DNA of 64,000 nt from the IMG/VR virus record IMGVR_UViG_3300045988_005753; one strand, given 5' to 3'. The translations under genes and the position numbers were made by a program. Source of the DNA: a virus (lineage: Duplodnaviria; Heunggongvirae; Uroviricota; Caudoviricetes). Shown here piece by piece: positions 2,959 to 19,624 of this stretch; the stretch's first letter is position 1; each line of letters starts with the position of its first letter. The notes below the pieces were generated by a model. That model was not told where the DNA came from. It worked only from the letters and a program-made list of their open reading frames with translations, and ran no database searches.

Positions 2959-3376
2959 AAGCTCTCCGAATAACCCTATTAAGCATCTCTAAAGTCAGCT
3001 TTCCAGATTCTAAATGTGGCACAATAAGTTTTAAAGCTTTTTCAACATCATGCACAACATCTATTATACCTTCTGCATAGGCTTCTACAAGGATATCTTT
3101 TACATTTTGTGATTTACCTTTTTGTGGTATCACTAGACGCATATCAAACTTATTTGCTTGAGGATGGTTCTTACCTTGCCAATAACCGTCTTTGTTAAAG
3201 CTGATGTAGTCACCGTGGTAAAAGTGTACACCATTAGCTTTAAACTTCTCCAGCACAAGGCATTGAATTGGGTATTCAGTATTCCACTCCCTGACTCCTA
3301 TAACCTTCACTGTTGCGATGTACTCCTGTGTTTTTGCATCTATGATGTCAAGTTCTTGACCAGCTATGATTTGCAT
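2948..3376 (-). CDS. hypothetical protein
   Basis: ATG start; operon-like packing with neighbours. Confidence 0.5.
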   Translation of the reverse strand: MQIIAGQELDIIDAKTQEYIATVKVIGVREWNTEYPIQCLVLEKFKANGVHFYHGDYISFNKDGYWQGKNHPQANKFDMRLVIPQKGKSQNVKDILVEAYAEGIIDVVHDVEKALKLIVPHLESGKLTLEMLNRVIRRAYEN

Positions 3377-10789: not shown

Positions 10790-12205
10790 ATGAGCGAATT
10801 ATTTAAACATGCGCACCTTCATGCAGGTCGAACTGAAAATGGTGCTGTAAACCATACTTCATCAATGTCTGCTCTTGTAGACTTTTACAAAGCTGCTGGT
10901 TCAAGCCGTAGCAATGTAGAAATCTTACCAGACCTGTTCTACAAAGCTTTGCGTGAGGATGTTGATGTTGCAGTTCGTATTTTACTGCATATGCGAGATG
11001 TACGAGAAGGTATGGGTGAGCGTAAAGCCTTCAGAACTGTTTTGCTTCAAGCGATTGAAGATAAAGTTTTAGAGCCTACGCAGGTTCTTCGCATTATGGA
11101 TAAGATTGCAGAGCTTGGTCGTTTTGATGACTTCAAAATCTTTGTAGGTACTCGTTTCGAGACAGATGCCTTCAAGCATTTAGAAGCAGCATTACTAGAC
11201 CCTGCAACAGCAGGTTTGGCAGCTAAGTGGTTACCACGAGTCAAACCACGTCATAAGCAGTTTGTAAAACGTTTCTGCAAGTTTGCAAACTTGAGTGAGA
11301 AAGAGTACCGCACACTGCTGTCTGCACTATCTGATACAGTTGAACAAAAAATATCTGCTAATGAGTTTGGTAAGATTGACTACAGTAAGATTCCTTCACT
11401 TGCTGCTGCACGTTACCAAAAGCTCTTTAACCGTAAAGATGGAGAACGCTACAAAGCTTACATTGAGTCCTTATCAAAGGGCGAGACTAAGATTAATGCT
11501 GGTGCTGTTTATCCATATGATGTGATTAAATCTATCAAGTATGGTAATGCAGATGTTGCTAATGAGCAGTGGAAAGCACTACCAAACTGGATGGCAGAAG
11601 GTGAAAACATCCTGTGTATGACTGATGTTTCAAGCTCAATGTCTTGGGTGAATCTTGGTTCAATCACTGCCCTTGATATTGGTGTATCCCTTGCCTTGTA
11701 TGTAGCAGAACGCAATACAGGTTGTTTTAAGAATGAGTTAATGGTTTATTCAACAAACCCTCATTTCATCGAACTGAGTGGTGATTTACGAAACCGTCAT
11801 CGTCAGGTAATGCGTCATGTTGAATATGGTTCAACTAACTTACAAGCAGCTTTTGACCGCATTCTTGAAATAGGTAAGAGAAACAACTTGACTCAGGAAG
11901 ATATGCCAAGTAAGCTTATCATCTTCTCTGATATGGAGTTCAATCAGGTTGACGGTGCAAATGGTCATACAAACTTTGAAGCAATTCAGAGTAAGTACAA
12001 AAAAGCTGGATATGAGATGCCACAATTGGTATTCTGGTACTTAGCAAACCGTAATGGTACTTGCGAAGTGTCTGTTAAGGATAACGGTGTAGCAATGGTA
12101 TCTGGTTTCTCTCCAGCCACTTTAAAAGCTCTGCTTGGTGGTGAGAAGTTTGACCCAATCAGCGTAATGCTCAAAGCAGTAATGATTGACCGCTATATCT
12201 GGTAA
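10790..12205 (+). CDS. vWA-domain protein, candidate Ro60/TROVE-like RNA-binding protein
   Basis: 471 aa; helical N-terminal part then a DxSxS MIDAS-type motif (DVSSSMS) typical of vWA folds; sits directly upstream of the tRNA array that contains Y-RNA-like elements. Confidence 0.55.
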   Translation: MSELFKHAHLHAGRTENGAVNHTSSMSALVDFYKAAGSSRSNVEILPDLFYKALREDVDVAVRILLHMRDVREGMGERKAFRTVLLQAIEDKVLEPTQVLRIMDKIAELGRFDDFKIFVGTRFETDAFKHLEAALLDPATAGLAAKWLPRVKPRHKQFVKRFCKFANLSEKEYRTLLSALSDTVEQKISANEFGKIDYSKIPSLAAARYQKLFNRKDGERYKAYIESLSKGETKINAGAVYPYDVIKSIKYGNADVANEQWKALPNWMAEGENILCMTDVSSSMSWVNLGSITALDIGVSLALYVAERNTGCFKNELMVYSTNPHFIELSGDLRNRHRQVMRHVEYGSTNLQAAFDRILEIGKRNNLTQEDMPSKLIIFSDMEFNQVDGANGHTNFEAIQSKYKKAGYEMPQLVFWYLANRNGTCEVSVKDNGVAMVSGFSPATLKALLGGEKFDPISVMLKAVMIDRYIW

Positions 12206-12223
12206 AAAGTTTTAAAAAGGGTA

Positions 12224-12252
12224 TTGACAATGTGTTTAATACCCTTTAATAT
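12224..12252 (+). promoter_or_regulatory. sigma70-type promoter upstream of the tRNA array
   Basis: TTGACA, 17-bp spacer, TAATAT. Confidence 0.55.
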
Positions 12253-12370
12253 GTTCTACATAGAAACGAAATGAGAGCTTTTCTAAGATACTGAAAAATA
12301 TTTTAAAAAAGTTCTTGACAACCACTAAAAAATAATGTTAAAGTAGTTACATAGAGTTTGAAAAGTTTAT

Positions 12371-12447
12371 CTCTGTTTAGCTCAGCTTGGTAGAGCGTTC
12401 CGTTTGGGGCGGTAAGGCCGGAGGTTCAAGTCCTCCAACAGAGACCA
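12371..12447 (+). tRNA. tRNA-Pro (UGG)
   Basis: cloverleaf folded by eye: acceptor CTCTGTT/AACAGAG, T-arm GGAGG-TTCAAGT-CCTCC, encoded CCA. Confidence 0.75.
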
Positions 12448-12454
12448 AATTAAT

Positions 12455-12532
12455 GTTCCAGTAGACAAAATGGTAAAGTCACCACTCTTTCAAAGTGGAT
12501 ATTTGAGGGTTCAAATCCCTTCTGGAACGCCA
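12455..12532 (+). tRNA. tRNA-Glu (UUC)
   Basis: acceptor GTTCCAG/CTGGAAC, anticodon stem CCACT/AGTGG, loop CTTTCAA, CCA. Confidence 0.75.
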
Positions 12533-12537
12533 GTTTT

Positions 12538-12618
12538 GACAGAAGACCAATTACAGCAAACTTAATCTTATTCATCTGAAGGTAAATCGGACAAAGAAGA
12601 GATTTGGTCTGGTCATTA
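12538..12618 (+). ncRNA. stem-bounded structured element A (ACAGAAGACCAATTACAGCAA ... TTGGTCTGG)
   Basis: 5' AGACCAA pairs with 3' TTGGTCT; compensatory changes relative to elements B and C. Confidence 0.4.
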
Positions 12619-12623
12619 AGAAT

Positions 12624-12700
12624 TGCGGGTATAGAGAAAGGGCGTCTCACATGTCTCATTAGCATGGTATCGGCAGGTTCGACTCCTGCACCCGCCTCCA
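12624..12700 (+). tRNA. tRNA-Met-like (CAU), irregular acceptor with a 1:72 mismatch
   Basis: T-arm GCAGG-TTCGACT-CCTGC, anticodon stem CATGT/GCATG, loop CTCATTA, CCA; 5' boundary uncertain. Confidence 0.5.
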
Positions 12701-12705
12701 AATTT

Positions 12706-12776
12706 ACAGAAGACCGTTTACAGCAACATTTATTAAATTTTTAGCGGAAAAATTGAAAGATACGGTCTGGTAATAC
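12706..12776 (+). ncRNA. stem-bounded structured element B (ACAGAAGACCGTTTACAGCAA ... ACGGTCTGG)
   Basis: 5' AGACCGT pairs with 3' ACGGTCT; internal AATTTTT-AGCGG-AAAAATT hairpin. Confidence 0.4.
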
Positions 12777-12783
12777 TAAACAT

Positions 12784-12860
12784 GGTTAGGAAGCACATAA
12801 GGTATGTGCGGTCGCCTGTTAAGCGAATGGCACAGGGTTCGAATCCCTGACTAACCGCCA
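12784..12860 (+). tRNA. tRNA-Asn (GUU)
   Basis: acceptor GGTTAGG/ACTAACC, D-stem GCAC/GTGC, loop CTGTTAA, T-arm CAGGG-TTCGAAT-CCCTG, CCA. Confidence 0.75.
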
Positions 12861-12929
12861 AATTTAGGAGAGAAGCGATTGCTCACCGATTTGTAAGGTG
12901 CAAGTCCTTAGCCTGAATAGAAATTAAAT

Positions 12930-13017
12930 GTGTCGTTATCCCGTAGATGGTAGCGGTGGGGACTGTAAATCCCTTGTCATTGAGACTCGGTAGGTTCGAC
13001 TCCTACACGGCACACCA
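12930..13017 (+). tRNA. tRNA-Tyr (GUA), long variable arm
   Basis: 88 nt; acceptor GTGTCGT/ACGGCAC, loop CTGTAAA, T-arm GTAGG-TTCGACT-CCTAC, CCA. Confidence 0.7.
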
Positions 13018-13022
13018 ATAAA

Positions 13023-13100
13023 GGTTATGTAGTTTAATCTGGTTAAAATACTCCCCTGTCACGGGAGATGATGAGGGTTCAAATCCCTTCGTAACCGCCA
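13023..13100 (+). tRNA. tRNA-Asp (GUC)
   Basis: acceptor GGTTATG/CGTAACC, anticodon stem CTCCC/GGGAG, loop CTGTCAC, CCA. Confidence 0.75.
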
Positions 13101-13124
13101 ATTTTGAGAGGGCTATTTAGCCCC

Positions 13125-13160
13125 TCCCTTAAAGAGTTCTTACGAGTATTCTTTAAAGGA
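13125..13160 (+). other. conserved hairpin (stem CCTTAAAGA/TCTTTAAAGG, loop containing TTCTTACGAG)
   Basis: same hairpin family recurs at 13974-14005 and 16466-16495, each time in a spacer of the tRNA array. Confidence 0.45.
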
Positions 13161-13161
13161 G

Positions 13162-13240
13162 CAGAAGGCCAAATACAGCAAGAATGTATGAAATTTCAAG
13201 CCAATTTAATTTTGAAAATTTAAAACTTGGTCTGGCTCAA
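13162..13240 (+). ncRNA. stem-bounded structured element D (AGAAGGCCAAATACAGCAAG ... TTGGTCTGG)
   Basis: 5' GGCCAA pairs with 3' TTGGTC (one G-U); same ACAGCAA core as A, B and C. Confidence 0.35.
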
Positions 13241-13247
13241 CAAATTT

Positions 13248-13385
13248 ACAGAAGACCGTTTACAGCAAAACTTAAACAATCTATTTCTCCGGTAAAGAAA
13301 AGGCGAAGGTTCGATTCCTTCACTCGGCAGATGTCGAGTTGGTGTAATGGTAGCACTTAAGATGATAAACAACGGTCTGGTAATT
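13248..13385 (+). ncRNA. candidate Y-RNA / YrlA-like tRNA mimic: closing stem around a circularly permuted tRNA-like module
   Basis: order read directly: 5' stem AGACCGTT, T-arm GAAGG-TTCGATT-CCTTC, acceptor 3' strand ACTCGGC, 4-nt loop, acceptor 5' strand GTCGAGT, D-arm GTGT-AATGGTA-GCAC, 3' stem AACGGTCT. Confidence 0.5.
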
Positions 13386-13529
13386 ATCTTTGTAGATAAG
13401 TTATTAAGCTTACCTGTGAGTATGCGACCACAAAGGGTGAATGGGTAAATTCTAGATTTAAACCCAAAAAGGCACATCGCTACAGACCTTAAGCAAGTCT
13501 GGGTAGCTTATCTACAAAGATAATTTAAT

Positions 13530-13605
13530 GGAAGTGTAGCAGAATGGTGATGCGGCAGACTTTTAATCTGACAGGCGATGGGTTCGAATCCCTCCACTTC
13601 TACCA
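13530..13605 (+). tRNA. tRNA-Lys (UUU)
   Basis: acceptor GGAAGTG/CACTTCT, loop CTTTTAA, T-loop TTCGAAT, CCA. Confidence 0.7.
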
Positions 13606-13609
13606 ATAT

Positions 13610-13686
13610 GGTTCAGTCGCAGATAAGGTAATGCAAGGGTCTCATAAGCCCTATGAATGTGGGTTCGATTCCCATCTGAACCTCCA
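13610..13686 (+). tRNA. tRNA-Met or tRNA-Ile2 (CAU)
   Basis: acceptor GGTTCAG/CTGAACC, anticodon stem AGGGT/GCCCT, loop CTCATAA, CCA. Confidence 0.7.
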
Positions 13687-13687
13687 A

Positions 13688-13763
13688 GCTGGTATAGTTA
13701 AGAAGGTTATAACACTCCCCTGATAAGGGAACATCGGTGGTTCGATTCCACCTACCAGTACCA
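13688..13763 (+). tRNA. tRNA-Ile (GAU)
   Basis: acceptor GCTGGTA/TACCAGT, D-stem GTTA/TAAC, loop CTGATAA, T-arm GGTGG-TTCGATT-CCACC, CCA. Confidence 0.7.
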
Positions 13764-13778
13764 ATTTCAATAAAGTTG

Positions 13779-13807
13779 TTGACATTGAGATGTGACTACT
13801 TTATAGT
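13779..13807 (+). promoter_or_regulatory. internal sigma70-type promoter within the tRNA array
   Basis: TTGACA, 17-bp spacer, TATAGT. Confidence 0.5.
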
Positions 13808-13973
13808 AACCTTAGTTTTCGTTGCGTAGCGTCTATTTTGCAAATTTAAAATAAATGCAAACGACAATGTTTTTCTGGCAGTAGCTTGATAGGCTAAACA
13901 CCAGTGAGGTCTTCCAATCCCTCATCAAAGAATTTGGCGTACTCGCCCACGGTATGATTAATAAGGTGGGCAT

Positions 13974-14005
13974 CTTTAAGGACTTTCTAAGAGAGTCTTT
14001 AAAGA
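13974..14005 (+). other. conserved hairpin (stem CTTTAAGGA/TCTTTAAAG, loop CTTTCTAAGAGAG)
   Basis: member of the TTCT(T)A(C/A)GAGAG-loop hairpin family. Confidence 0.45.
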
Positions 14006-14009
14006 TAAT

Positions 14010-14086
14010 GCACCCTTAGTTCAATTGGATAGAGCAACGGTCTTCTAAATCGTTAGTTACAGGTTCGAATCCTGTAGGGTGTACCA
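14010..14086 (+). tRNA. tRNA-Arg (UCU)
   Basis: acceptor GCACCCT/AGGGTGT, anticodon stem ACGGT/ATCGT, loop CTTCTAA, T-arm ACAGG-TTCGAAT-CCTGT, CCA. Confidence 0.75.
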
Positions 14087-14228
14087 AATAGTTAGCAGAT
14101 TACTTAGACTGCCTTAGCGGGTCTTCCTGTAGGGAGGTGGTCTGTATCTCATGTTTTCCAGAACATGTAAATAATCTGAGAAGAAGCTTGACAGTGTTGA
14201 GATAACAGGGTAAGCTTCGAATTATAAT

Positions 14229-14311
14229 ATGGGACGATGTTAAGACTCTAAGGCATGAGCAACGGCCTCCAAAACCGTTTCAAAGGGGTTCAACTCCTCC
14301 GTCCCATGCCA
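14229..14311 (+). tRNA. tRNA-like gene, probably tRNA-Trp (CCA), with an enlarged irregular D-region
   Basis: perfect 7-bp acceptor ATGGGAC/GTCCCAT, T-loop TTCAACT, CCA end, anticodon loop CTCCAAA; 83 nt. Confidence 0.5.
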
Positions 14312-14324
14312 AAGTCTTATTAGG

Positions 14325-14414
14325 GGTAGGTAGCGGCTAATGGCAGCCAAACAGTCTTGAAAACTGTTGCCACTGTAGAGATACGGTGAGGGTTCGACTC
14401 CTTTACTTACCGCC
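14325..14414 (+). tRNA. tRNA-Ser (UGA), long variable arm; CCA apparently not encoded
   Basis: acceptor GGTAGGT/ACTTACC, anticodon stem ACAGT/ACTGT, loop CTTGAAA, T-loop TTCGACT. Confidence 0.65.
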
Positions 14415-14565
14415 TAATAAGATTTACTCCGTCCATGCTTGTTCGCATTGTCGGTTTATCCCTCGTGTATTGTCGTACACTGTCAAAGCACCTAGTAGGT
14501 GTCATGGAGAGAGATAATATCAAGCTCTCCAAAGGTTCTAGTCACCGGATTAAACAAGACTATGC

Positions 14566-14588
14566 AAAGACCTAAATAGGTCTTTTTA
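14566..14588 (+). terminator. rho-independent terminator-like hairpin inside the tRNA array
   Basis: AAGACC-TAAATA-GGTCTT followed by TTTTT. Confidence 0.45.
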
Positions 14589-14591
14589 GAG

Positions 14592-14650
14592 GGCTTCTAA
14601 GGTTATTACAGCTTGTTGTGGAACCTTGTTGCTTAGGTTCTTAGAAGTTC
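14592..14650 (+). other. long hairpin (CTTCTAAGG ... CTTAGAAG)
   Basis: 8-bp inverted repeat around a 40-nt loop; related to the CTAAGG hairpin family. Confidence 0.35.
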
Positions 14651-14666
14651 TCTAAAAAGATTTAAT

Positions 14667-14744
14667 GGGAGATTGACGGTAATTGGTAAACCTACCATCC
14701 TTAGAAGTTGGTGTTTGAGGGTTCGAATCCCTTGTCTCCTACCA
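14667..14744 (+). tRNA. tRNA with anticodon UAG (Leu-type) but a short variable arm
   Basis: acceptor GGGAGAT/GTCTCCT, D-loop AATTGGTAA (Leu-like), anticodon stem CCATC/GTTGG, loop CTTAGAA, A73, CCA; 78 nt. Confidence 0.6.
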
Positions 14745-14751
14745 AATTAAT

Positions 14752-14827
14752 GCAGGTGTAGCAAAATGGTTATGCGGCTGACTCTTAATCAGTAAGACGA
14801 TGGGTTCAATTCCCTCCACCTGTACCA
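14752..14827 (+). tRNA. tRNA-Lys (CUU)
   Basis: acceptor GCAGGTG/CACCTGT, anticodon stem GCTGA/TCAGT, loop CTCTTAA, CCA; close paralog of the Lys(UUU) gene. Confidence 0.7.
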
Positions 14828-14833
14828 AACAAT

Positions 14834-14909
14834 GGGGTCATAGTTTATATGGTTAAAATTCGAGTTTTGCAAACTTGGGAACTGAGTTCAATTCTCAGTG
14901 ACTCCACCA
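14834..14909 (+). tRNA. tRNA-Ala (UGC)
   Basis: acceptor GGGGTCA/TGACTCC, anticodon stem CGAGT/ACTTG, loop TTTGCAA, T-arm CTGAG-TTCAATT-CTCAG, CCA. Confidence 0.75.
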
Positions 14910-14915
14910 ATTAGT

Positions 14916-14990
14916 GCATCCATAGTTTAAACGGGAAAATTACAGTCTTCCAAACTGAGGTTGAGGGTTCGATTCCCTCTGGATGCTCCA
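14916..14990 (+). tRNA. tRNA-Gly (UCC)
   Basis: acceptor GCATCCA/TGGATGC, loop CTTCCAA, T-arm GAGGG-TTCGATT-CCCTC, CCA. Confidence 0.7.
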
Positions 14991-14997
14991 AATTAAT

Positions 14998-15073
14998 GCT
15001 CCTATCGTATAATTGGTTATTACGGTTGCCTTGTAAGCAACTTATCAGGGTTCGAGTCCTTGTGGGAGCACCA
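14998..15073 (+). tRNA. tRNA-Thr (UGU)
   Basis: acceptor GCTCCTA/TGGGAGC, anticodon stem GTTGC/GCAAC, loop CTTGTAA, CCA. Confidence 0.75.
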
Positions 15074-15074
15074 A

Positions 15075-15165
15075 TTCAGAGGTCAAGTGAAAGACCGCTT
15101 TGAGTCAACTGAAGACCGTAACAAATTCCACGGAGTTGAGTTAGCGGCACAACTCCAGACCTCTT
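15075..15165 (+). ncRNA. structured spacer element E (long-range stem CAGAGGTC/GACCTCT, internal hairpin GGAGTTG...CAACTCC, GAAGACCGTAACAA motif)
   Basis: inverted repeats read directly; shares the GAAGACCGT core with elements A-D. Confidence 0.35.
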
Positions 15166-15169
15166 TCAT

Positions 15170-15244
15170 ACTCGCTTAGTTTATATGGTAAAACATCACC
15201 CTTACAAGATGAAGAAAAAGGTTCAAGTCCTTTAGTGAGTACCA
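15170..15244 (+). tRNA. tRNA-Val (UAC)
   Basis: acceptor ACTCGCT/AGTGAGT, D-stem GTTT/AAAC, anticodon stem TCACC/GATGA, loop CTTACAA, CCA. Confidence 0.7.
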
Positions 15245-15245
15245 T

Positions 15246-15323
15246 GTTCCAGTATCCCAATTGGCAGAGGATGCAAGCTCAAACCTTGTATTAGTGACGG
15301 TTCGAATCCGTCTTGGAACACCA
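15246..15323 (+). tRNA. tRNA with anticodon CAA (Leu-type) but a short variable arm
   Basis: acceptor GTTCCAG/TTGGAAC, D-loop AATTGGCAGAG (Leu-like), anticodon stem GCAAG/CTTGT, loop CTCAAAC, A73, CCA. Confidence 0.6.
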
Positions 15324-15328
15324 ATTTT

Positions 15329-15404
15329 GCAGGATTAGTTCAAATGGAAAGAGCAACAGTCTACGAAGCTGTTAATAGGGGTTCGAATCCCTTATCCTGC
15401 GCCA
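15329..15404 (+). tRNA. tRNA-Arg (ACG)
   Basis: acceptor GCAGGAT/ATCCTGC, D-stem GTTC/GAGC, anticodon stem ACAGT/GCTGT, loop CTACGAA, CCA. Confidence 0.75.
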
Positions 15405-15421
15405 GATAAAAAGGTGACACT

Positions 15422-15664
15422 ATGCAAACATTAACAGTAGTTGAACATGAAAACTGTGAGAGTATTGAGTTTGTCAGGGTCATTGGTGTTGAACACCACA
15501 TTTTCTTAAAAGTGGGATACTTATGTGACCCCGCTAGAGTAGAAAGATTTATACGTGATTGTTTTGGTGGTAGACATCTGAAGAGTGTTATTTTTGAGAC
15601 AGTTTTACCAGAAGGTTTAGAAACGAATAATAACATTTACCTCCTTACGAGGATTAGACAATGA
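15422..15664 (+). CDS. hypothetical protein embedded in the tRNA array
   Basis: ATG with AGGTGA RBS; ATGA coupling to the next ORF. Confidence 0.45.
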   Translation: MQTLTVVEHENCESIEFVRVIGVEHHIFLKVGYLCDPARVERFIRDCFGGRHLKSVIFETVLPEGLETNNNIYLLTRIRQ

Positions 15665-16218
15665 GATACTTAAAGTATGCTTCATGGATTTTCTTAGCTT
15701 TGTTAGAGCCATTTGCAGCAATCTTAGCAGTTATCTTAGCACCTTTCGTAGTTCCATTCTACAGTGAGAAGAAAGGACATCTACCTTTCGGGTTCAGATG
15801 GATGGAAACTTATGACAACCCAATTGATGGTGATGAAGGTCACGTTAAAAGATGGGCTAATATTAGATGGATTGGTAAACTAGGTGTCTACATGCAAAGA
15901 GTCGGATGGCTCTGGAGAAACAAAGCTTATAACTTCTCTTACCATGTATTAGGGAGAGATGTAAAAGATGTTACTAAGTGGAAAGGTAATATCAACGTAA
16001 GTTCTGACCCTGAAGATAATCAGACAGGTTATCTCCTAATGTGGAACAGTAATGCTTGGGGATTATTCGCTTTTATCCCATCAATTAAAATCTTTGGTAA
16101 ACAATTTTACTGGAGAATTTATATTGGATGGAAACTAAAAAGTGTTGTCCCAGAAGAAAGAGCATTCTCAAGGGAAAGAGTTATGTTGGCATTCTTTATT
16201 CATCCACTGAGAAAGTAA
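15661..16218 (+). CDS. membrane protein embedded in the tRNA array
   Basis: N-terminal hydrophobic segment WIFLALLEPFAAILAVILAPFVVPF; 185 aa. Confidence 0.5.
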   Translation: MRYLKYASWIFLALLEPFAAILAVILAPFVVPFYSEKKGHLPFGFRWMETYDNPIDGDEGHVKRWANIRWIGKLGVYMQRVGWLWRNKAYNFSYHVLGRDVKDVTKWKGNINVSSDPEDNQTGYLLMWNSNAWGLFAFIPSIKIFGKQFYWRIYIGWKLKSVVPEERAFSRERVMLAFFIHPLRK

Positions 16219-16226
16219 AGATTTAA

Positions 16227-16302
16227 AGGGGATTAGTTTACAAGGTTAAAACCTCGGTCTTTGAAATCGAAGAAGTTGGTTCAATTCCAACATCCCCCGC
16301 CA
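16227..16302 (+). tRNA. tRNA-Gln (UUG)
   Basis: acceptor AGGGGAT/ATCCCCC, anticodon stem TCGGT/ATCGA, loop CTTTGAA, T-arm GTTGG-TTCAATT-CCAAC, CCA. Confidence 0.7.
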
Positions 16303-16304
16303 AT

Positions 16305-16383
16305 GCTCCATTACTCCAATTGGCAGAGAGGCCAGACTTAAAATCTGTGTTATGTATCGGTTCGAATCCGATATGGAGTACCA
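16305..16383 (+). tRNA. tRNA with anticodon UAA (Leu-type) but a short variable arm
   Basis: acceptor GCTCCAT/ATGGAGT, D-loop AATTGGCAGAG (Leu-like), loop CTTAAAA, T-arm ATCGG-TTCGAAT-CCGAT, A73, CCA. Confidence 0.6.
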
Positions 16384-16388
16384 AATTT

Positions 16389-16464
16389 AGCGGTATAGCA
16401 TAACTGGCAATGCAGCAGTCTCTGAAGCTGTCTTATTAAGGTTCAAATCCTTATGCCGCTGCCA
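16389..16464 (+). tRNA. tRNA-Gln (CUG)
   Basis: acceptor AGCGGTA/TGCCGCT, anticodon stem GCAGT/GCTGT, loop CTCTGAA, CCA. Confidence 0.65.
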
Positions 16465-16465
16465 C

Positions 16466-16495
16466 TTCTAAGGATTCTTACGAGAGTCCTTAAAT
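16466..16495 (+). other. conserved hairpin (stem TAAGGA/TCCTTA, loop TTCTTACGAGAG)
   Basis: member of the TTCTTACGAG-loop hairpin family. Confidence 0.45.
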
Positions 16496-16571
16496 GTGGC
16501 CTTATCATAAATGGTAATGACCCATGCTGTGAACATGGTCTATACGGGTTCAAATCCCGTAGGTCACCCCA
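16496..16571 (+). tRNA. tRNA-His (GUG)
   Basis: acceptor GTGGCCT/AGGTCAC, D-stem TCAT/ATGA, anticodon stem CCATG/CATGG, loop CTGTGAA, CCA. Confidence 0.75.
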
Positions 16572-16576
16572 ATTTA

Positions 16577-16653
16577 TAGTCCAAGTAGCTTATATGGTTA
16601 AAGCGCGTGTCTGAAAAACATGAGAAGAGGGTTCAAATCCCACTGGACTACCA
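16577..16653 (+). tRNA. tRNA-Phe (GAA)
   Basis: acceptor TAGTCCA/TGGACTA, anticodon stem CGTGT/ACATG, loop CTGAAAA, T-loop TTCAAAT, CCA; 5' end uncertain by 1 nt. Confidence 0.65.
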
Positions 16654-16669
16654 ATTTCAAAGGTGCTTA

Positions 16670-17404
16670 ATGAAAGAGATGACAGAACAAGGTAAGGAGA
16701 TTTTTAATCTCTTAAAAACTGGTAAAGGGTTTTCTAACCCCCTTATTACTGGTGCAGCAGTTCTCGGTGGAACCGTAGCTGCCTCCACATCACTTGTAAG
16801 CTCTATTAGTTCTGTATCAGACCCTACAGTAAAAGATAAGCTTGTTGCTGCTGGACTTACAACAGTTCTGCTTAACAGCTTTACCACGAGTCTGACAAGC
16901 ACTACATCAACTACCAAAACACTGACAGATTACGGTCAAAAGTCCATTGATGAGTTTTCATCACGTATGCAGGTAGCAAAAGGTTATTCTAATGTTATGG
17001 GTGCAGCAGGTGAACAAGTTGGCTGTACACCATTTAGTGGTATTATGGGTGTTGCTACAGAGTATGGTCAAAAAGCTATTGATACGATTAACAGTGCACT
17101 AGACGGTGTTAATGATGTATTAAGTGATTTACAAGACGCTATTGACAAAGGTCTTGATACTATTTCTGATTTAGCTAACCAAGCTGTTAGTAAGATTAAT
17201 GAAGGTATCTCGAAGATTACAGCTTATGCAGATGAAGTTGTGCAGATGATTGAAGAAGAAGCTGCCCTTATTGCAGAGTACCTTAAAACGAATATCAATG
17301 GGTTCTTAGCAGGTATCTTACCAGACTGGTTTGATGATGCTTGTAAAACTGGTGTAATTGACACTATTGCAACACCAGAAATGAAGAACGCATTACAGAA
17401 ATAA
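16670..17404 (+). CDS. hypothetical Ser/Thr-rich protein
   Basis: track ORF starts inside tRNA-Phe; first ATG downstream of the tRNA (16670) has an AAAGGTG RBS. Confidence 0.5.
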   Translation: MKEMTEQGKEIFNLLKTGKGFSNPLITGAAVLGGTVAASTSLVSSISSVSDPTVKDKLVAAGLTTVLLNSFTTSLTSTTSTTKTLTDYGQKSIDEFSSRMQVAKGYSNVMGAAGEQVGCTPFSGIMGVATEYGQKAIDTINSALDGVNDVLSDLQDAIDKGLDTISDLANQAVSKINEGISKITAYADEVVQMIEEEAALIAEYLKTNINGFLAGILPDWFDDACKTGVIDTIATPEMKNALQK

Positions 17405-17405
17405 T

Positions 17406-17498
17406 GGAAGATTAACCCTAAAAGGTAAGGGAGCAGTTTGCTAAACTGCCAGTAGCTGAGAAATCGGTGTACCAGTTCAAGTCTGGTATCTTCCTCCA
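17406..17498 (+). tRNA. tRNA-Ser (GCU), long variable arm
   Basis: 93 nt; acceptor GGAAGAT/ATCTTCC, anticodon stem GCAGT/ACTGC, loop TTGCTAA, T-arm ACCAG-TTCAAGT-CTGGT, CCA. Confidence 0.7.
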
Positions 17499-17502
17499 AT
17501 TT

Positions 17503-17578
17503 GAATCCGTGACAGAAATGGCTATGTGCCTGTCTGCAAAACAGGTTTATAAGGGTTCGAGTCCCTTCGGATTCTCCA
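17503..17578 (+). tRNA. tRNA-Cys (GCA)
   Basis: acceptor GAATCCG/CGGATTC, anticodon stem CCTGT/ACAGG, loop CTGCAAA, T-arm AAGGG-TTCGAGT-CCCTT, CCA. Confidence 0.75.
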
Positions 17579-17615
17579 AGTTATTTTACTCTCTCTCAAT
17601 TAAAATAATAATAAT

Positions 17616-17676
17616 GCCCTGCTATCAGTATTCTTCCTTTCGCTACCGAAGAGTATTTTTAGACAGGGCTTTTTTA
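17616..17676 (+). terminator. terminator-like structure after the tRNA array
   Basis: GCCCTG ... CAGGGC stem around a structured loop, followed by TTTTTT. Confidence 0.5.
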
Positions 17677-17730
17677 CAGAGTTATACTTTATAAGAAGCC
17701 TTATACAGTATGTCTCTGACGTACATTGTG

Positions 17731-17755
17731 GTTTCTCCTTGACGGTCTCTGTACC
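17731..17755 (+). terminator. rho-independent terminator
   Basis: GACGGT-CTCTGT-ACCGTC followed by TTTTTT. Confidence 0.6.
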
Positions 17756-17800
17756 GTCTTTTTTAAGGGGAAACATGATTAACTATTTGGAGAAAACATA

Positions 17801-18001
17801 ATGAGCGAGACCGTTTATAAAGAACTTTATGAAGCTAATAAGAAGCTAGAATTTATGCAGAATACTATCATGGCAATTGCAGACAGATTGTCTGTAGCAA
17901 CAGGTATTGATATTAAAGAAGCATCTATGGATGCACTTCTTGATGCTGTTGATGCAAAGTTCGAAGTTAAGAAAGAAGAGACTGCTACAGACTCTGAATA
18001 A
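17801..18001 (+). CDS. small hypothetical protein upstream of the large terminase
   Basis: ATG with GGAGAAAA RBS; 66 aa. Confidence 0.5.
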   Translation: MSETVYKELYEANKKLEFMQNTIMAIADRLSVATGIDIKEASMDALLDAVDAKFEVKKEETATDSE

Positions 18002-18022
18002 TTCTATTTGCGGAGGCGCTTA

Positions 18023-19624
18023 ATGGACTTAAATGCTGTTAAGCAGAAGCGAGTGGAAGATGTTAGGAAAGTCCTAGCTGGAGAGTTGGGGCTTTCTGAT
18101 GAAGTAAAAGAAATTATTAAATCATTCGGTAAAGACCCCTCTAAATTCCTTCCAACTCAAATTCTGACTTTATTAAGATACACACCAGACCAAGTTCGCC
18201 TTATCTTTAAATTGATGACTGATAAGAATTATGTAGCCCCTCAGCCGGGTTCTCAAGAGGTCTTTTTAAATACTAATGCTGACTTGGTTCTTTATGGTGG
18301 TGCTGCTGGTGCTGGTAAAACTGCTGCATTGTTAATGGACTCTCTAAGATTTATTGAAGACCCTAACTATAATGCTGTATATTTCCGTCGAAATACAACA
18401 CAGCTACAAGGTGGTTTATGGCCTGCTGCAAAGAAACTATTTGGTAAGTTTGGTGGGATTCCTCACGAGCAGAAAATGACTATCACATTCCCTTCTGGGG
18501 CAACTATCAAGTTTACCTACCTAGAACTTGAAAAGCACGCTGAAGGTCATCAGGGTATTGAGTATTCAGCCATTTACTTTGACGAAGGTACACACTTCTC
18601 CGCTTCACAGATTTCATACCTACAAACCCGTCTACGTTCTGGTGCTGAAGGTGATTCATACATGAAGATTTCCATGAACCCAGACAGAGACCACTTTATT
18701 TATGATTGGGTGGAGCCATTCTTAGATGAAGAAGGCTATCCAGACCCTGAAAAGTGTGGTCGTATTCGTTGGTATGTAATGAATGATGGTGTGATGGTTT
18801 CTGATTGGGAGAGAGACAAGATTCTTGAAATGTTCCCTCTTGAGATTCCTCAAACATACACCTTTATCTCTGGTACGATTGATGATAACCCAATCCTTGA
18901 CTTCTTAGAGCCTAAGTACCGTGGTAAGTTGGAAAACAACACCCCTGTAAACGTTGCAAGACTTCGTTTCGGTAACTGGAAGGCTCGTGCAGAAGGTTCA
19001 AACTATTGGCAAAGACAATGGTGTGAAATTGTTGATTCACTCCCAGAAGATGTATTTGATGTTAGAGCATGGGACTTAGCAGCAACTTTACCATCTGAGG
19101 TTAACCCTAATCCAGACTGGACAGCAGGTGTTAAGATGGGTAAATCTAAAAAAGACGGTTGCTATTATATCATTGATGTAGTAAGATTTAGAGATAGACC
19201 CTCTGGAGTCGAAACACAAATTAATTTGACTGCTGAAAGTGACGGTAAGCGAACTGGTATTTTTATCCCTCAAGACCCAGGCGCTGCTGGTAAATCCTAC
19301 GCAACATCCCTCATCAGGAAACTTGCCGAGAAAGGTTATCGAGCAAGAGCCAAACCAACAAATAAAGATAAAGTTACCCGCTTTGCGGGATTTTCTGCTG
19401 CTTCTGAAGCTGGACTTGTAAAAGTCTTGAGAGGTAGTTGGAATGAAGCTTACTTTCAAGAACTTGAAGGCTTTTGTGGTGATGGTAAAACTAAAGATGA
19501 CCAAGTGGATGCTACCAGTGATGCTTTCAACAGTCTTAACGAAGTTAAATTATTCAAGCCACCATCAATGGGTGCTCACACAGATTTAGTGAGAGGAAAC
19601 CCATATGAGGGGCTTAGACGTTGA
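18023..19624 (+). CDS. terminase large subunit
   Basis: Walker A LVLYGGAAGAGKTAAL near the N-terminus; track ORF starts on TTG at 18008, ATG at 18023 has a GGAGG RBS. Confidence 0.85.
   Translation: MDLNAVKQKRVEDVRKVLAGELGLSDEVKEIIKSFGKDPSKFLPTQILTLLRYTPDQVRLIFKLMTDKNYVAPQPGSQEVFLNTNADLVLYGGAAGAGKTAALLMDSLRFIEDPNYNAVYFRRNTTQLQGGLWPAAKKLFGKFGGIPHEQKMTITFPSGATIKFTYLELEKHAEGHQGIEYSAIYFDEGTHFSASQISYLQTRLRSGAEGDSYMKISMNPDRDHFIYDWVEPFLDEEGYPDPEKCGRIRWYVMNDGVMVSDWERDKILEMFPLEIPQTYTFISGTIDDNPILDFLEPKYRGKLENNTPVNVARLRFGNWKARAEGSNYWQRQWCEIVDSLPEDVFDVRAWDLAATLPSEVNPNPDWTAGVKMGKSKKDGCYYIIDVVRFRDRPSGVETQINLTAESDGKRTGIFIPQDPGAAGKSYATSLIRKLAEKGYRARAKPTNKDKVTRFAGFSAASEAGLVKVLRGSWNEAYFQELEGFCGDGKTKDDQVDATSDAFNSLNEVKLFKPPSMGAHTDLVRGNPYEGLRR

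What the first reader, a model, noticed from the sequence alone, without database searches (positions are those of the whole stretch)
15075..15165. Additional structured spacer element between tRNA-Thr and tRNA-Val
A 90-nt spacer has a long-range stem (CAGAGGTC with GACCTCT), an internal 7-bp hairpin (GGAGTTG...CAACTCC) and the GAAGACCGTAACAA core related to elements A-D. It is too structured to be a plain spacer.
Basis: seen in the sequence. Interest (0 to 1): 0.4.

Follow-up and report, generated by a model that had tools for sequence, protein, structure and literature searches.

The report
Conserved small RNA inside tRNA array
The 96-base gap between two tRNA genes of this Felix O1-type phage is itself a gene for a small, knotted RNA of unknown function, kept almost unchanged in hundreds of phages; it is not a spacer, a tRNA or a peptide gene, and it belongs to no described RNA family.

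Summary
Window 15075-15169 lies between tRNA-Thr and tRNA-Val of a Felixounavirus tRNA array. It holds the stem AGAGGTC/GACCTCT (P1), the hairpin GGAGTTG/CAACTCC (P2) and the box GAAGACCGTAACAA. It folds better than all 200 shuffles (z -3.8). It is 94-100% identical across Felixounavirus, Mooglevirus and Suspvirus, more than its flanking tRNAs. A diverged copy sits in the unrelated phage Av-05. Over 25 distinct sequences, P1, P2 and a third pairing (CCGC with GCGG in the P2 loop, a pseudoknot) are 97.9% paired. Four pairs show compensatory double changes from two or more lineages. A 1-nt indel rules out both small ORFs. No Rfam family, tRNA finder or E. coli sequence matches. Elements A-D turn out to be Y-RNA-like RNAs (one with YrlA architecture) next to a Ro60-fold gene. 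E shares only a 9-14 nt box with them, fails their covariance model, and occurs in Av-05 without the Ro60-like gene. Best reading: a new orphan structured RNA, co-transcribed and cut out with the tRNAs, acting in trans through a 22-nt invariant segment. This is the same kind of thing as T4 rnaC/rnaD. Its function is unknown, and Ro60 binding is only a candidate.

The parts
15075..15169 (+). Whole element E: full-length match to the covariance model built from its relatives; the predicted small RNA is about 88-95 nt
   Evidence: R1 model gives 122 bits, E=2e-28. Fold z-score is -3.81. Identity to seven relatives is 94-100%.
15078..15084 (+). P1 5' strand, AGAGGTC (closing stem)
   Evidence: Pairs with 15158-15164. 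Pair 15081/15161 changes G-C to U-A in the Av-05 lineage and to G-U in L175.
15158..15164 (+). P1 3' strand, GACCTCT
   Evidence: Same as the P1 5' strand; 94.9% of cells are paired over 25 distinct sequences.
15132..15138 (+). P2 5' strand, GGAGTTG
   Evidence: 100% of cells are paired. Pair 15134/15154 changes A-U to G-C (Av-05) and G-U (L173). Pair 15133/15155 is seen as G-C, G-U and A-U (wV8).
15139..15149 (+). P2 loop, AGTTAGCGGCA; its GCGGC (15144-15148) pairs with the upstream G..CCGC
   Evidence: Pseudoknot helix: pair 15097/15145 changes G-C to A-U in L168/L169, with G-U in L199. Pair 15093/15148 changes G-C to A-U in Av-05.
15150..15156 (+). P2 3' strand, CAACTCC
   Evidence: See the P2 5' strand.
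15093..15098 (+). Upstream strand of the pseudoknot helix, G(A)CCGC
   Evidence: 99.2% of cells are paired, and 2 of 5 pairs have double changes. A15094 to G in L015/L018 adds a further G-C pair.
15104..15125 (+). Invariant block GTCAACTGAAGACCGTAACAAA. It is unpaired in the covariation-supported fold and is the presumed functional surface. It contains the box shared with elements B and D.
   Evidence: Identical in all 25 distinct sequences, including Av-05 and L173. The first variable loop positions are 15126-15127 (L041, L170, L195).
14998..15073 (+). tRNA-Thr(tgt). Its 3' maturation would set the 5' end of E, which starts 1-4 nt after the CCA.
   Evidence: ARAGORN and Rfam. In Av-05 a tRNA-Gly takes the same place, 4-5 nt before P1.
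15170..15244 (+). tRNA-Val(tac). RNase P cleavage at its 5' end would set the 3' end of E.
   Evidence: ARAGORN and Rfam. There is no promoter or terminator between 14667 and 15404. The processing itself is inferred.

Best explanation
E is a gene for a small (about 90 nt) structured non-coding RNA that rides in the phage's tRNA operon. It has no promoter or terminator of its own and is transcribed with the eight tRNAs around it. It would be released by the enzymes that mature those tRNAs. RNase P cutting at the 5' end of tRNA-Val would make its 3' end. 3' maturation of tRNA-Thr would make its 5' end. It folds into a compact pseudoknot with three parts: a 7-bp closing stem P1 that ties the two ends together, a 7-bp hairpin P2 next to the 3' strand of P1, and a pairing of GCGG(C) in the P2 loop with G..CCGC upstream. 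This scaffold holds out a 22-nt invariant segment, GUCAACUGAAGACCGUAACAAA. The RNA most likely acts in trans through that segment by binding a partner, probably a protein. In Felix-type phages the most obvious candidate is the Ro60-like protein encoded just upstream of the array, because the segment contains the same C-N-GAAGACCGU box as the 5' strand of that protein's presumed Y-like RNAs. I give that particular partner only about 0.2. What is shown: sequence conservation, three helices with compensatory changes, absence of coding potential, absence of own transcription signals, and no membership in any described family. What is inferred: processing, stability, action in trans, and the partner.
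For: Location and lack of own signals. Fold better than all shuffles. About 260 phage records carry it, and it is 94-100% identical where tRNA-Thr is 76-96% and tRNA-Val 85-100%. Over 25 distinct sequences from phage records, IMG/VR and metagenomes, 97.9% of cells are paired. Four pairs have changes on both sides and 0 of 500 shuffles reach that. Each of the three helices has at least one such pair. The PK pair 23-71 changes in a lineage independent of Av-05, and a G-U intermediate is also seen. P1+P2 is the plain MFE fold of the two diverged lineages, Av-05 and L173. A 1-nt indel shifts both ORFs. The same kind of thing is annotated in T4: rnaC and rnaD are small stable RNAs directly following a tRNA in the tRNA cluster. 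Context for the Ro60 idea: the gene at 10790-12205 has a Ro60 fold; A-D are Y-like RNAs; the box is shared.
Against: There is no expression or processing data. Diversity is low, and most double changes come from one diverged lineage, so the covariation is real but thin. In Felix-type sequences the thermodynamic optimum is a rod (-29.4) that excludes P2; P1+P2 enforced gives -25.3. Against the Ro60 partner: Av-05 keeps a structurally compensated E but has no Ro60-like gene and no Y-like RNA. E is absent from about 75 other phage loci that encode Ro60-like proteins. In distant Y-like RNAs the GACCG part covaries as a helix strand and is not conserved as sequence.
Confidence: 0.55

Rival explanations
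1. E is a true, if aberrant, Y RNA of the phage Ro60-like protein: a fifth member of the A-D system that binds the protein through its C-N-GAAG box and gates or tethers it.
For: It shares the AC-N-GAAGACCGT-..ACA box with Y-like B and D. The box resembles the GNCGAAN0-1G / CGAA Ro-binding motif, for which only the 5' strand is needed in bacterial YrlA (PMC4201824; PMC12135203). It lies in the same operon as a Ro60-fold gene. The rod conformer is a stem-bulge-stem with GAAGA in the bulge.
Against: The Y-like covariance model gives no hit on E with filters off. There is no 3' partner strand and no ACAGCAA box. Av-05 has E without the Ro60-like gene. E is absent from other Ro60-like loci. The rod that looks Y-like is contradicted by the wV8 and L173 variants.
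Confidence: 0.15
2. E is a cis-acting regulatory RNA, like a riboswitch or another two-state leader. It would sense a ligand or factor and control read-through or translation of the downstream module: the 80-aa ORF at 15422-15664 plus the DUF7338 membrane protein at 15661-16218.
For: It has aptamer-like size and architecture: a closing P1, a pseudoknot and an invariant core. Two mutually exclusive folds (rod vs P2) are both possible in every variant. In Av-05, E lies about 30-40 nt upstream of homologues of exactly these two ORFs.
Against: In Felix-type phages two or three tRNA genes lie between E and the ORFs. No terminator or Shine-Dalgarno-sequestering platform follows E. Mooglevirus keeps E without DUF7338. 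No Rfam riboswitch matches. E always abuts a tRNA 3' end, as a processed RNA would.
Confidence: 0.12
3. E is a processing or insulating element of the tRNA precursor. It would be a structured spacer that guides RNase E, RNase III or RNase P, or keeps neighbouring tRNAs from misfolding, and would then be degraded.
For: It sits between two tRNAs in one transcript. Its closing stem brings the two tRNA ends together.
Against: Sixteen other junctions in this array work with 1-7 nt spacers. A distant relative has a simple 35-nt hairpin at the same Thr-Val junction. A 22-nt invariant unpaired block and a pseudoknot are far more than such a role needs. In Av-05, E has no tRNA on its 3' side.
Confidence: 0.08
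4. E is a self-cleaving ribozyme that frees the 3' end of the upstream tRNA or the 5' end of the downstream one.
For: It is a compact pseudoknot with invariant nucleotides directly abutting a tRNA 3' end, which is the arrangement described from memory for HDV-like 'theta' ribozymes in gut phages.
Against: No match to any ribozyme family in Rfam at E<=10. An attempted HDV-like threading fails, because P1 pairs the two ends, as shown by covariation, and does not pair the 5' end with an internal strand. The host enzymes already process all other junctions.
Confidence: 0.04
5. E is not an RNA gene. It would be a small peptide gene (+ strand GTG 15087-15179, 30 aa; or - strand 15083-15169, 28 aa, annotated as '51A' in phage wV8) or a decayed tRNA left as neutral spacer.
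For: Both ORFs exist. A Shine-Dalgarno-like AGAGG precedes the GTG. Some records annotate a hypothetical protein here.
Against: A 1-nt indel at 15099-15101 is present in most lineages. It shifts both frames and gives an unrelated 18-aa product in Sf13. Substitutions follow base-pairing, not codons. No tRNA signal is found by ARAGORN or Rfam. Conservation exceeds that of the real tRNAs next to it.
Confidence: 0.02

Closest known systems
T4 rnaC and rnaD (species 1 and species 2 RNAs): small stable RNAs encoded in the T4 tRNA cluster
   Same: They are non-tRNA RNAs of about 100 nt on the same strand, directly adjoining a tRNA gene in a phage tRNA cluster. They have no signals of their own, and their function remains unknown (the statement about unknown function is from memory).
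   Different: There is no sequence or model similarity: the E model finds nothing in the T4 tRNA region with filters off. T4 rnaC ends in a tRNA-type T arm, whereas E has no T-loop sequence. E's fold is a pseudoknot. Expression of E has not been shown.
Bacterial and phage Y RNAs (YrlA/YrlB; Rfam RF02553), partners of Ro60/Rsr
   Same: E lies in an operon headed by a Ro60-fold gene that also carries four Y-like RNAs. It shares with them a purine-rich C-N-GAAG box resembling the Ro-binding GNCGAAN0-1G motif. It has paired 5' and 3' ends.
   Different: E has no tRNA-like T/D module and no Ro-binding bulged helix formed next to the ends. It fails both Rfam YrlA and the local Y-like model. It occurs without a Ro60-like gene in Av-05.
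tRNA and tRNA-like structures
   Same: The topology is reminiscent of the top half of a tRNA: a 7-bp closing stem followed by 2 nt (AA), a 3' hairpin adjoining the 3' strand of the closing stem, and a loop-to-upstream-segment tertiary pairing in the position of the T-loop/D-loop contact. This is inference from the fold.
   Different: There are no conserved tRNA nucleotides, no anticodon arm and no CCA. The hairpin is 7 bp with an 11-nt loop. ARAGORN and Rfam do not call a tRNA.
H-type pseudoknot aptamers of small riboswitches
   Same: Similar size, a closing helix, a hairpin loop pairing with an upstream strand, and an invariant core.
   Different: No Rfam match, no expression platform, and it sits inside a tRNA array.

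Membership tests
Local Y-like RNA family (elements A-D of this window) | The 5' and 3' ends form a 4-5 bp helix. This is followed by a 5' A-N-A / 3' G internal loop and then a 6-7 bp helix beginning A-G and ending C-U. | tested here: not met
   A-D and their relatives are 100% paired, and 7 of 10 pairs covary. E has the 5' strand sequence (AGACCG) but no CGGTCT-G partner anywhere in 15075-15169.
Local Y-like RNA family (elements A-D of this window) | Box U-W-U-A-C-A-G-C-A-A immediately 3' of the upper helix | tested here: not met
   E has GTAACAAATT at that place. Only ACA is shared.
Local Y-like RNA family (elements A-D of this window) | Significant score against the family's covariance model | tested here: not met
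   Model R2 scores A, B and C at 63-74 bits and the untrained D at 46.7 bits (E=3e-9). There is no hit overlapping 15075-15169 at E<=10 with filters off.
Local Y-like RNA family (elements A-D of this window) | Co-occurrence with a DUF2828-type Ro60-like gene on the same strand | tested here: inconclusive
   This holds in Felix-type phages. It does not hold in Av-05, where tblastn finds no Ro60-like gene in 120 kb. E is absent from about 75 other Ro60-like loci.
Bacterial YrlA (Rfam RF02553) | tRNA-like module (T arm, closed acceptor-like stem, D arm) plus the GNCGAAN0-1G motif near the 5' end (PMC4201824) | tested here: not met
   No RF02553 hit at E. There is no GGTTCGA-type T loop in E. CUGAAG only resembles the motif.
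tRNA | Cloverleaf with conserved D/T-loop nucleotides and an anticodon arm | tested here: not met
   ARAGORN and Rfam RF00005 at E<=10 give nothing in 15074-15169.
Any described RNA family (Rfam 15: riboswitches, ribozymes, sRNAs) | A match to a curated covariance model | tested here: not met
   cmscan of 11500-18500 with permissive filters at E<=10 gives no hit overlapping E.
Small stable RNAs of phage tRNA operons (T4 rnaC/rnaD type) | A non-tRNA RNA gene on the tRNA strand, abutting tRNA genes, without its own promoter or terminator | tested here: met
   compare the T4 annotation.
Small stable RNAs of phage tRNA operons (T4 rnaC/rnaD type) | Accumulates as a discrete stable RNA in infected cells | not testable with these tools
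   No expression data could be found.
Small stable RNAs of phage tRNA operons (T4 rnaC/rnaD type) | Homology to rnaC or rnaD | tested here: not met
   The E model finds nothing in the T4 tRNA region.
Small protein gene | Reading frame and peptide conserved among relatives | tested here: not met
   The indel at 15099-15101 shifts both frames, and the Sf13 product diverges after residue 4 and stops at 18 aa.

The most novel reading that the evidence does not exclude
E is the first member of a new class of pseudoknotted, trans-acting phage RNAs made from tRNA operons. Its invariant 22-nt loop would capture a specific protein. That protein could be the phage's own Ro60-like anti-defence protein, with E acting as a non-canonical regulator of the Ro60/Y-RNA particle that counters the 'ppl' defence in Bas63. 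Alternatively it could be a host nuclease or defence sensor, with E acting as a decoy. This would explain why the element moves between unrelated phages together with tRNA genes.
Probability: 0.2. Interest if true: 0.7.

Novelty: new member of a known kind. Interest (0 to 1): 0.45.

Why it matters
Phage tRNA arrays are usually annotated as tRNAs plus junk spacers. This one carries at least one orphan RNA that is held as constant as the tRNAs themselves. Around it lies a whole set of other non-tRNA RNAs next to a Ro60-like gene that has been shown to counter a bacterial defence system. If E is expressed and binds a defined partner, it would add a new RNA class to the phage toolkit for manipulating RNA metabolism or immunity. 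It would also give a handle on the long-unanswered question of what the 'extra' small RNAs of phage tRNA clusters do; those of T4 have been known since the 1970s. It is directly testable in well-used phages (Felix O1, wV8, Bas63). If it has no phenotype, it remains a curiosity of one phage lineage.

Tried and rejected
1. Peptide gene on either strand. Both ORFs exist, but an indel shifts both frames.
2. tRNA or tRNA pseudogene. No tRNA signal, and conservation is too high.
3. Member of the A-D (Y-like) family. It fails their covariance model.
4. Any Rfam family, including hammerhead, HDV-like, hatchet, pistol, twister-sister and the small riboswitches. No hit. Hand-threading as a hammerhead (CUGAAGA is present but no GAAA after stem II) and as HDV-like (GUGAAAG/CUUUCAU as P2) fails, because the tail is not conserved and covariation shows that P1 pairs the two ends.
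5. The MFE 'rod' as the functional fold. Its AGU/ACU helix breaks in Av-05, its 42-59 pair breaks in wV8, and its 31-65 and 29-67 pairs break in L173. P2 is never broken. The rod is kept only as a possible alternative state.
6. Mimic of, or antisense to, host RNA. No E. coli genome match beyond one 24-nt chance hit in a prophage. A resemblance I noticed to the 16S rRNA decoding-site strand (UGAAGUCGUAACAAGG) is not above chance: local score 19 against a shuffle mean of 20.3.
7. Antisense targets in the phage window. Five 11-mers against 3 expected. A thrice-occurring AACTCCAGACCT lies in unrelated coding sequence. The 9-nt complementarity of GAAGACCGU to the anticodon arm of the phage tRNA-Arg(UCU) was noted by eye. 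E persists in phages lacking that tRNA.
8. More distant homologues. Three IMG/VR scans, one metagenome scan and a model search of about 75 Ro60-like loci found only Felix-type, Av-05-type and one intermediate (L173). The other pattern hits were chance matches in coding DNA.
9. Homology to T4 rnaC/rnaD. None.
10. Literature. No description of this element was found. One search was wasted by a poor choice of terms.

Full report
WHAT THE WINDOW IS. The window is a Felix O1/wV8-type myovirus (Felixounavirus). Bases 14900-15400 are 100% identical to phages KhF3 and XTG1. A tRNA array of 26 genes runs on the + strand from 12371 to 17578. The finding is the 96-nt gap between tRNA-Thr(tgt) 14998-15073 and tRNA-Val(tac) 15170-15244.

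The sequence contains all three features:
- AGAGGTC 15078-15084 and GACCTCT 15158-15164 (P1, 7 bp);
- GGAGTTG 15132-15138 and CAACTCC 15150-15156 (P2, 7 bp, 11-nt loop);
- GAAGACCGTAACAA at 15111-15124, the only exact copy in the window.
The 96 nt fold to -29.4 kcal/mol against -18.5 +/- 2.9 for dinucleotide shuffles (z -3.81, 0 of 200 as good).

IT IS UNDER SELECTION AS RNA. About 260 phage records contain it, and 254 contain the whole Thr-E-Val unit. Against seven relatives from three genera (Felixounavirus, Mooglevirus, Suspvirus), E is 94-100% identical. The tRNA-Thr next to it is 76-96%, tRNA-Val 85-100%, and elements A-D 67-100%. Two small ORFs overlap it: + strand 15087-15179 (30 aa) and - strand 15083-15169 (28 aa, annotated '51A' in wV8). 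A 1-nt indel at 15099-15101 separates the lineages and shifts both frames. In Sf13 the + strand product changes after residue 4 and ends at 18 aa. ARAGORN and Rfam see no tRNA here. No Rfam family of any type matches at E<=10 with permissive filters. There is no sigma-70-like promoter or intrinsic terminator in or next to it. It is therefore part of the tRNA transcript.

RELATIVES AND STRUCTURE. Exact-pattern scans of IMG/VR and of metagenome contigs, filtered with a covariance model (R1), gave 54 copies and 25 distinct sequences. Most are Felix-type with a few point changes. Two lineages are diverged:
- Phage Av-05 and its relatives (Avunavirus, Vequintavirinae; about 84% identical; six records).
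- A metagenomic Felix-like contig, L173.
On this set, P1, P2 and a third helix are 97.9% paired. The third helix pairs G15093 and CCGC 15095-15098 with GCGGC 15144-15148 in the P2 loop. Four pairs change on both sides, and none of 500 column shuffles reaches this. The changes are:
- P1 15081/15161: G-C to U-A (Av-05), G-U (L175).
- P2 15134/15154: A-U to G-C (Av-05), G-U (L173).
- P2 15133/15155: seen as G-C, G-U and A-U (wV8).
- Third helix 15097/15145: G-C to A-U (L168/L169, inside the Felix type), with the G-U intermediate in L199.
- Third helix 15093/15148: G-C to A-U (Av-05).
Because the third helix uses the P2 loop, the three together make an H-type pseudoknot. This evidence is real but thin. 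Most double changes come from one lineage, and the alignment was fitted to P1+P2.

THE COMPETING FOLD. For Felix-type sequences RNAfold prefers a rod. In the rod, UCAACU 15105-15110 pairs with AGUUGA 15134-15139 in place of P2 (-29.4 against -25.3 with P1+P2 enforced). The rod shares P1 and the CCGC:GCGG helix. Its own helices show no double change and are broken at 15116/15133 in wV8, at 15105/15139 and 15103/15141 in L173, and in the small AGU/ACU helix in Av-05. P2 is never broken. In Av-05 and L173 the plain MFE is P1+P2. I take P1+P2+pseudoknot as the conserved fold. Whether the rod is a second functional state stays open.

THE INVARIANT SEGMENT. Bases 15104-15125 (GTCAACTGAAGACCGTAACAAA) are identical in all 25 sequences, and in the supported fold they are unpaired. 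The linker 15099-15103 varies (TTTGA, TTGA, TGGT, TTGG). So do 15126-15127, the tails outside P1, and parts of the P2 loop. This pattern is what one expects of a structural scaffold that presents one sequence-specific surface.

WHAT ELEMENTS A-D ARE, AND WHETHER E IS ONE OF THEM.

The gene in front of the array has a Ro60 fold.
- It lies at 10790-12205 (471 aa, Pfam DUF2828+DUF7788).
- It was modelled at pLDDT 89.8.
- Its eleven best PDB matches are all Ro60/TROVE proteins over the full length: 2i91 at E=2e-8 and TM 0.65, plus Thermus phage phiLo Ro60 and Deinococcus Rsr.
- Its Bas63 homologue gp130 was reported as Ro60-like and as a counter to the 'ppl' defence. Those authors guessed that some of the 'tRNAs' might be Y RNAs (PMC11482910).

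Elements A-D share one design. They lie at 12537-12615, 12704-12773, 13159-13238 and 13246-13383, and each has:
- a terminal 4-5 bp helix;
- a 5' A-N-A / 3' G internal loop;
- a 6-7 bp helix;
- the box UWUACAGCAA.

Over 17 sequences, including a relative whose Ro60-like protein is only 56% identical, the two helices are 100% paired and 7 of 10 pairs covary.

D also holds a T arm, a closed acceptor-like stem that covaries (ACTCGGC/GTCGAGT, ACACG/CGTGT, ACCCTTC/GAAGGGT) and a D arm. That is the architecture described for bacterial YrlA (PMC4201824).

A model of A-C (R2) finds the untrained D. It also gives 13 hits in 11 distant Ro60-like loci, all on the strand of the Ro60-like gene.

E does not belong.
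- R2 gives no hit on E with filters off at E<=10.
- E lacks the 3' partner strand and the ACAGCAA box.
- What it shares is AC-N-GAAGACCGT..ACA with B and D. That is a modestly significant match for a 5-kb region, and it lies in the part of the Y-like RNAs that is a covarying helix strand, not a conserved sequence.
- Av-05 has a structurally compensated E directly after a tRNA-Gly, but no Ro60-like gene in 120 kb (tblastn) and no Y-like element.
- About 75 other Ro60-like loci have no E.
- Two closer relatives do not carry it: L009 has a plain 35-nt hairpin at the Thr-Val junction, and L008 lacks the segment.

HOW IT MOST LIKELY WORKS. What is shown is a conserved, pseudoknotted, non-coding RNA element inside a tRNA transcript. 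The rest is inferred. RNase P cleavage at tRNA-Val and 3' maturation of tRNA-Thr would release a ~90-nt RNA whose ends are protected by P1. T4 rnaC and rnaD are annotated as small stable RNAs in the same position in the T4 tRNA cluster, though E is not homologous to them. The invariant unpaired 22 nt would be the working surface, most likely for a protein. I put 0.55 on this 'processed, trans-acting structured RNA' reading. Within it, about 0.2 goes to the Ro60-like protein as partner.

Rivals:
- A genuine but aberrant Y RNA (0.15).
- A cis-regulatory two-state leader for the downstream 80-aa ORF and DUF7338 gene, which directly follow E in Av-05 (0.12).
- A mere processing element (0.08).
- A self-cleaving ribozyme (0.04).
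- A peptide gene or dead tRNA (0.02).

DEAD ENDS. There is no similarity or complementarity to E. coli genomes. An apparent likeness to the 16S decoding-site strand is at chance level. There is no excess of antisense matches in the window.

VERDICT. This is a real feature and a new RNA family of narrow distribution. It is the same kind of thing as the long-known, still unexplained small RNAs of phage tRNA clusters. Interest is moderate, because nothing is yet known of its function. The surrounding Ro60/Y-like RNA system is the more striking result and raises the chance that E matters.

Noticed in passing
window 10790-12205 (+) with 12537-12615, 12704-12773, 13159-13238, 13246-13383 (+): The gene heading the tRNA array has a full-length Ro60 (TROVE+vWA) fold, although Pfam only calls DUF2828/DUF7788. 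The four 'elements A-D' behind it form a strongly covarying Y-RNA-like family, and D has YrlA architecture (T arm, closed acceptor-like stem, D arm). A model of the family also hits, always on the same strand, near Ro60-like genes in 11 distant phage contigs. Rfam's YrlA model does not detect them. This looks like an undescribed Y RNA family for DUF2828-type phage Ro60 proteins.
   Followed up: partly
window 13777-14009 (+): A tmRNA-like gene with its own strong promoter (TTGACA-17-TATAGT at 13779-13807). It carries a tag-like reading frame, GCA AAC GAC AAT GTT TTT CTG GCA GTA GCT TGA TAG = ANDNVFLAVA**. ARAGORN does not call it. Rfam gives only sub-threshold tmRNA and permuted-tmRNA hits (29 and 17 bits). 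No T arm is visible in the gene itself. It is 89-99% conserved in relatives.
   Followed up: no
window 14231-14310 (+): A tRNA-like sequence with a 7-bp acceptor stem (TGGGACG/CGTCCCA), a T arm and a CCA (Trp) anticodon loop. It is missed by ARAGORN and scores only 23 bits against Rfam tRNA-Sec. It is 84-100% conserved in relatives.
   Followed up: no
window 13383-13529 (+): Another non-tRNA structured element. A ~23-bp terminal stem (ATTATCTTTGTAGATAAG.../...CTTATCTACAAAGATAAT) encloses several hairpins, including CAGACCTTAAGCAAGTCTGG. MFE is -47.9 and z = -6.35. Relatives L008 and L009 keep it with changed stem sequence.
   Followed up: partly
L002 1509-1589, L008 9972-10049, L030 (Av-05) reverse strand about 3225-3295; absent from the window: A further ~75-nt structured spacer (CACCCTTAACTGAGAAAC...GTTTCTCTACCAAGGGTA) lies between tRNA genes of Mooglevirus-type phages and of Av-05. 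Both of its helices show compensatory changes (CCCTT/AAGGG vs CCCCA/TGGGG; GAGAAAC/GTTTCTC vs GAGAATC/GGTTCTC). This suggests that several orphan RNAs travel with tRNA genes between phage families.
   Followed up: no
window 13128-13160, 13975-14006, 16466-16495 (+): A recurring hairpin with a conserved loop (stem AAGGA/TCCTT-like, loop TTCTTACGAG or TTCTAAGAG) sits just upstream of Y-like C, tRNA-Arg(tct) and tRNA-His. The two exact TTCTTACGAG copies are both in the array. It may be a processing or regulatory signal.
   Followed up: partly
window 15422-16218 (+) and Av-05 KM190144 5598-6364 (-): The 80-aa ORF and the DUF7338 membrane protein downstream of E have homologues in the same order directly downstream of E in the unrelated phage Av-05. 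The segment tRNA-E-ORF-DUF7338 therefore seems to have moved as a block.
   Followed up: partly
window 14998-15073 and neighbouring tRNA genes: Individual tRNA genes in the array occur as sharply different alleles among otherwise close phages: tRNA-Thr 76% vs 96%, tRNA-Ile 59-66% vs 99%, tRNA-Leu(tag) 55% vs 100%. The tRNA-Thr allele is 96% identical to that of ~145-kb Vequintavirus phages. This indicates gene-by-gene exchange inside tRNA arrays.
   Followed up: no
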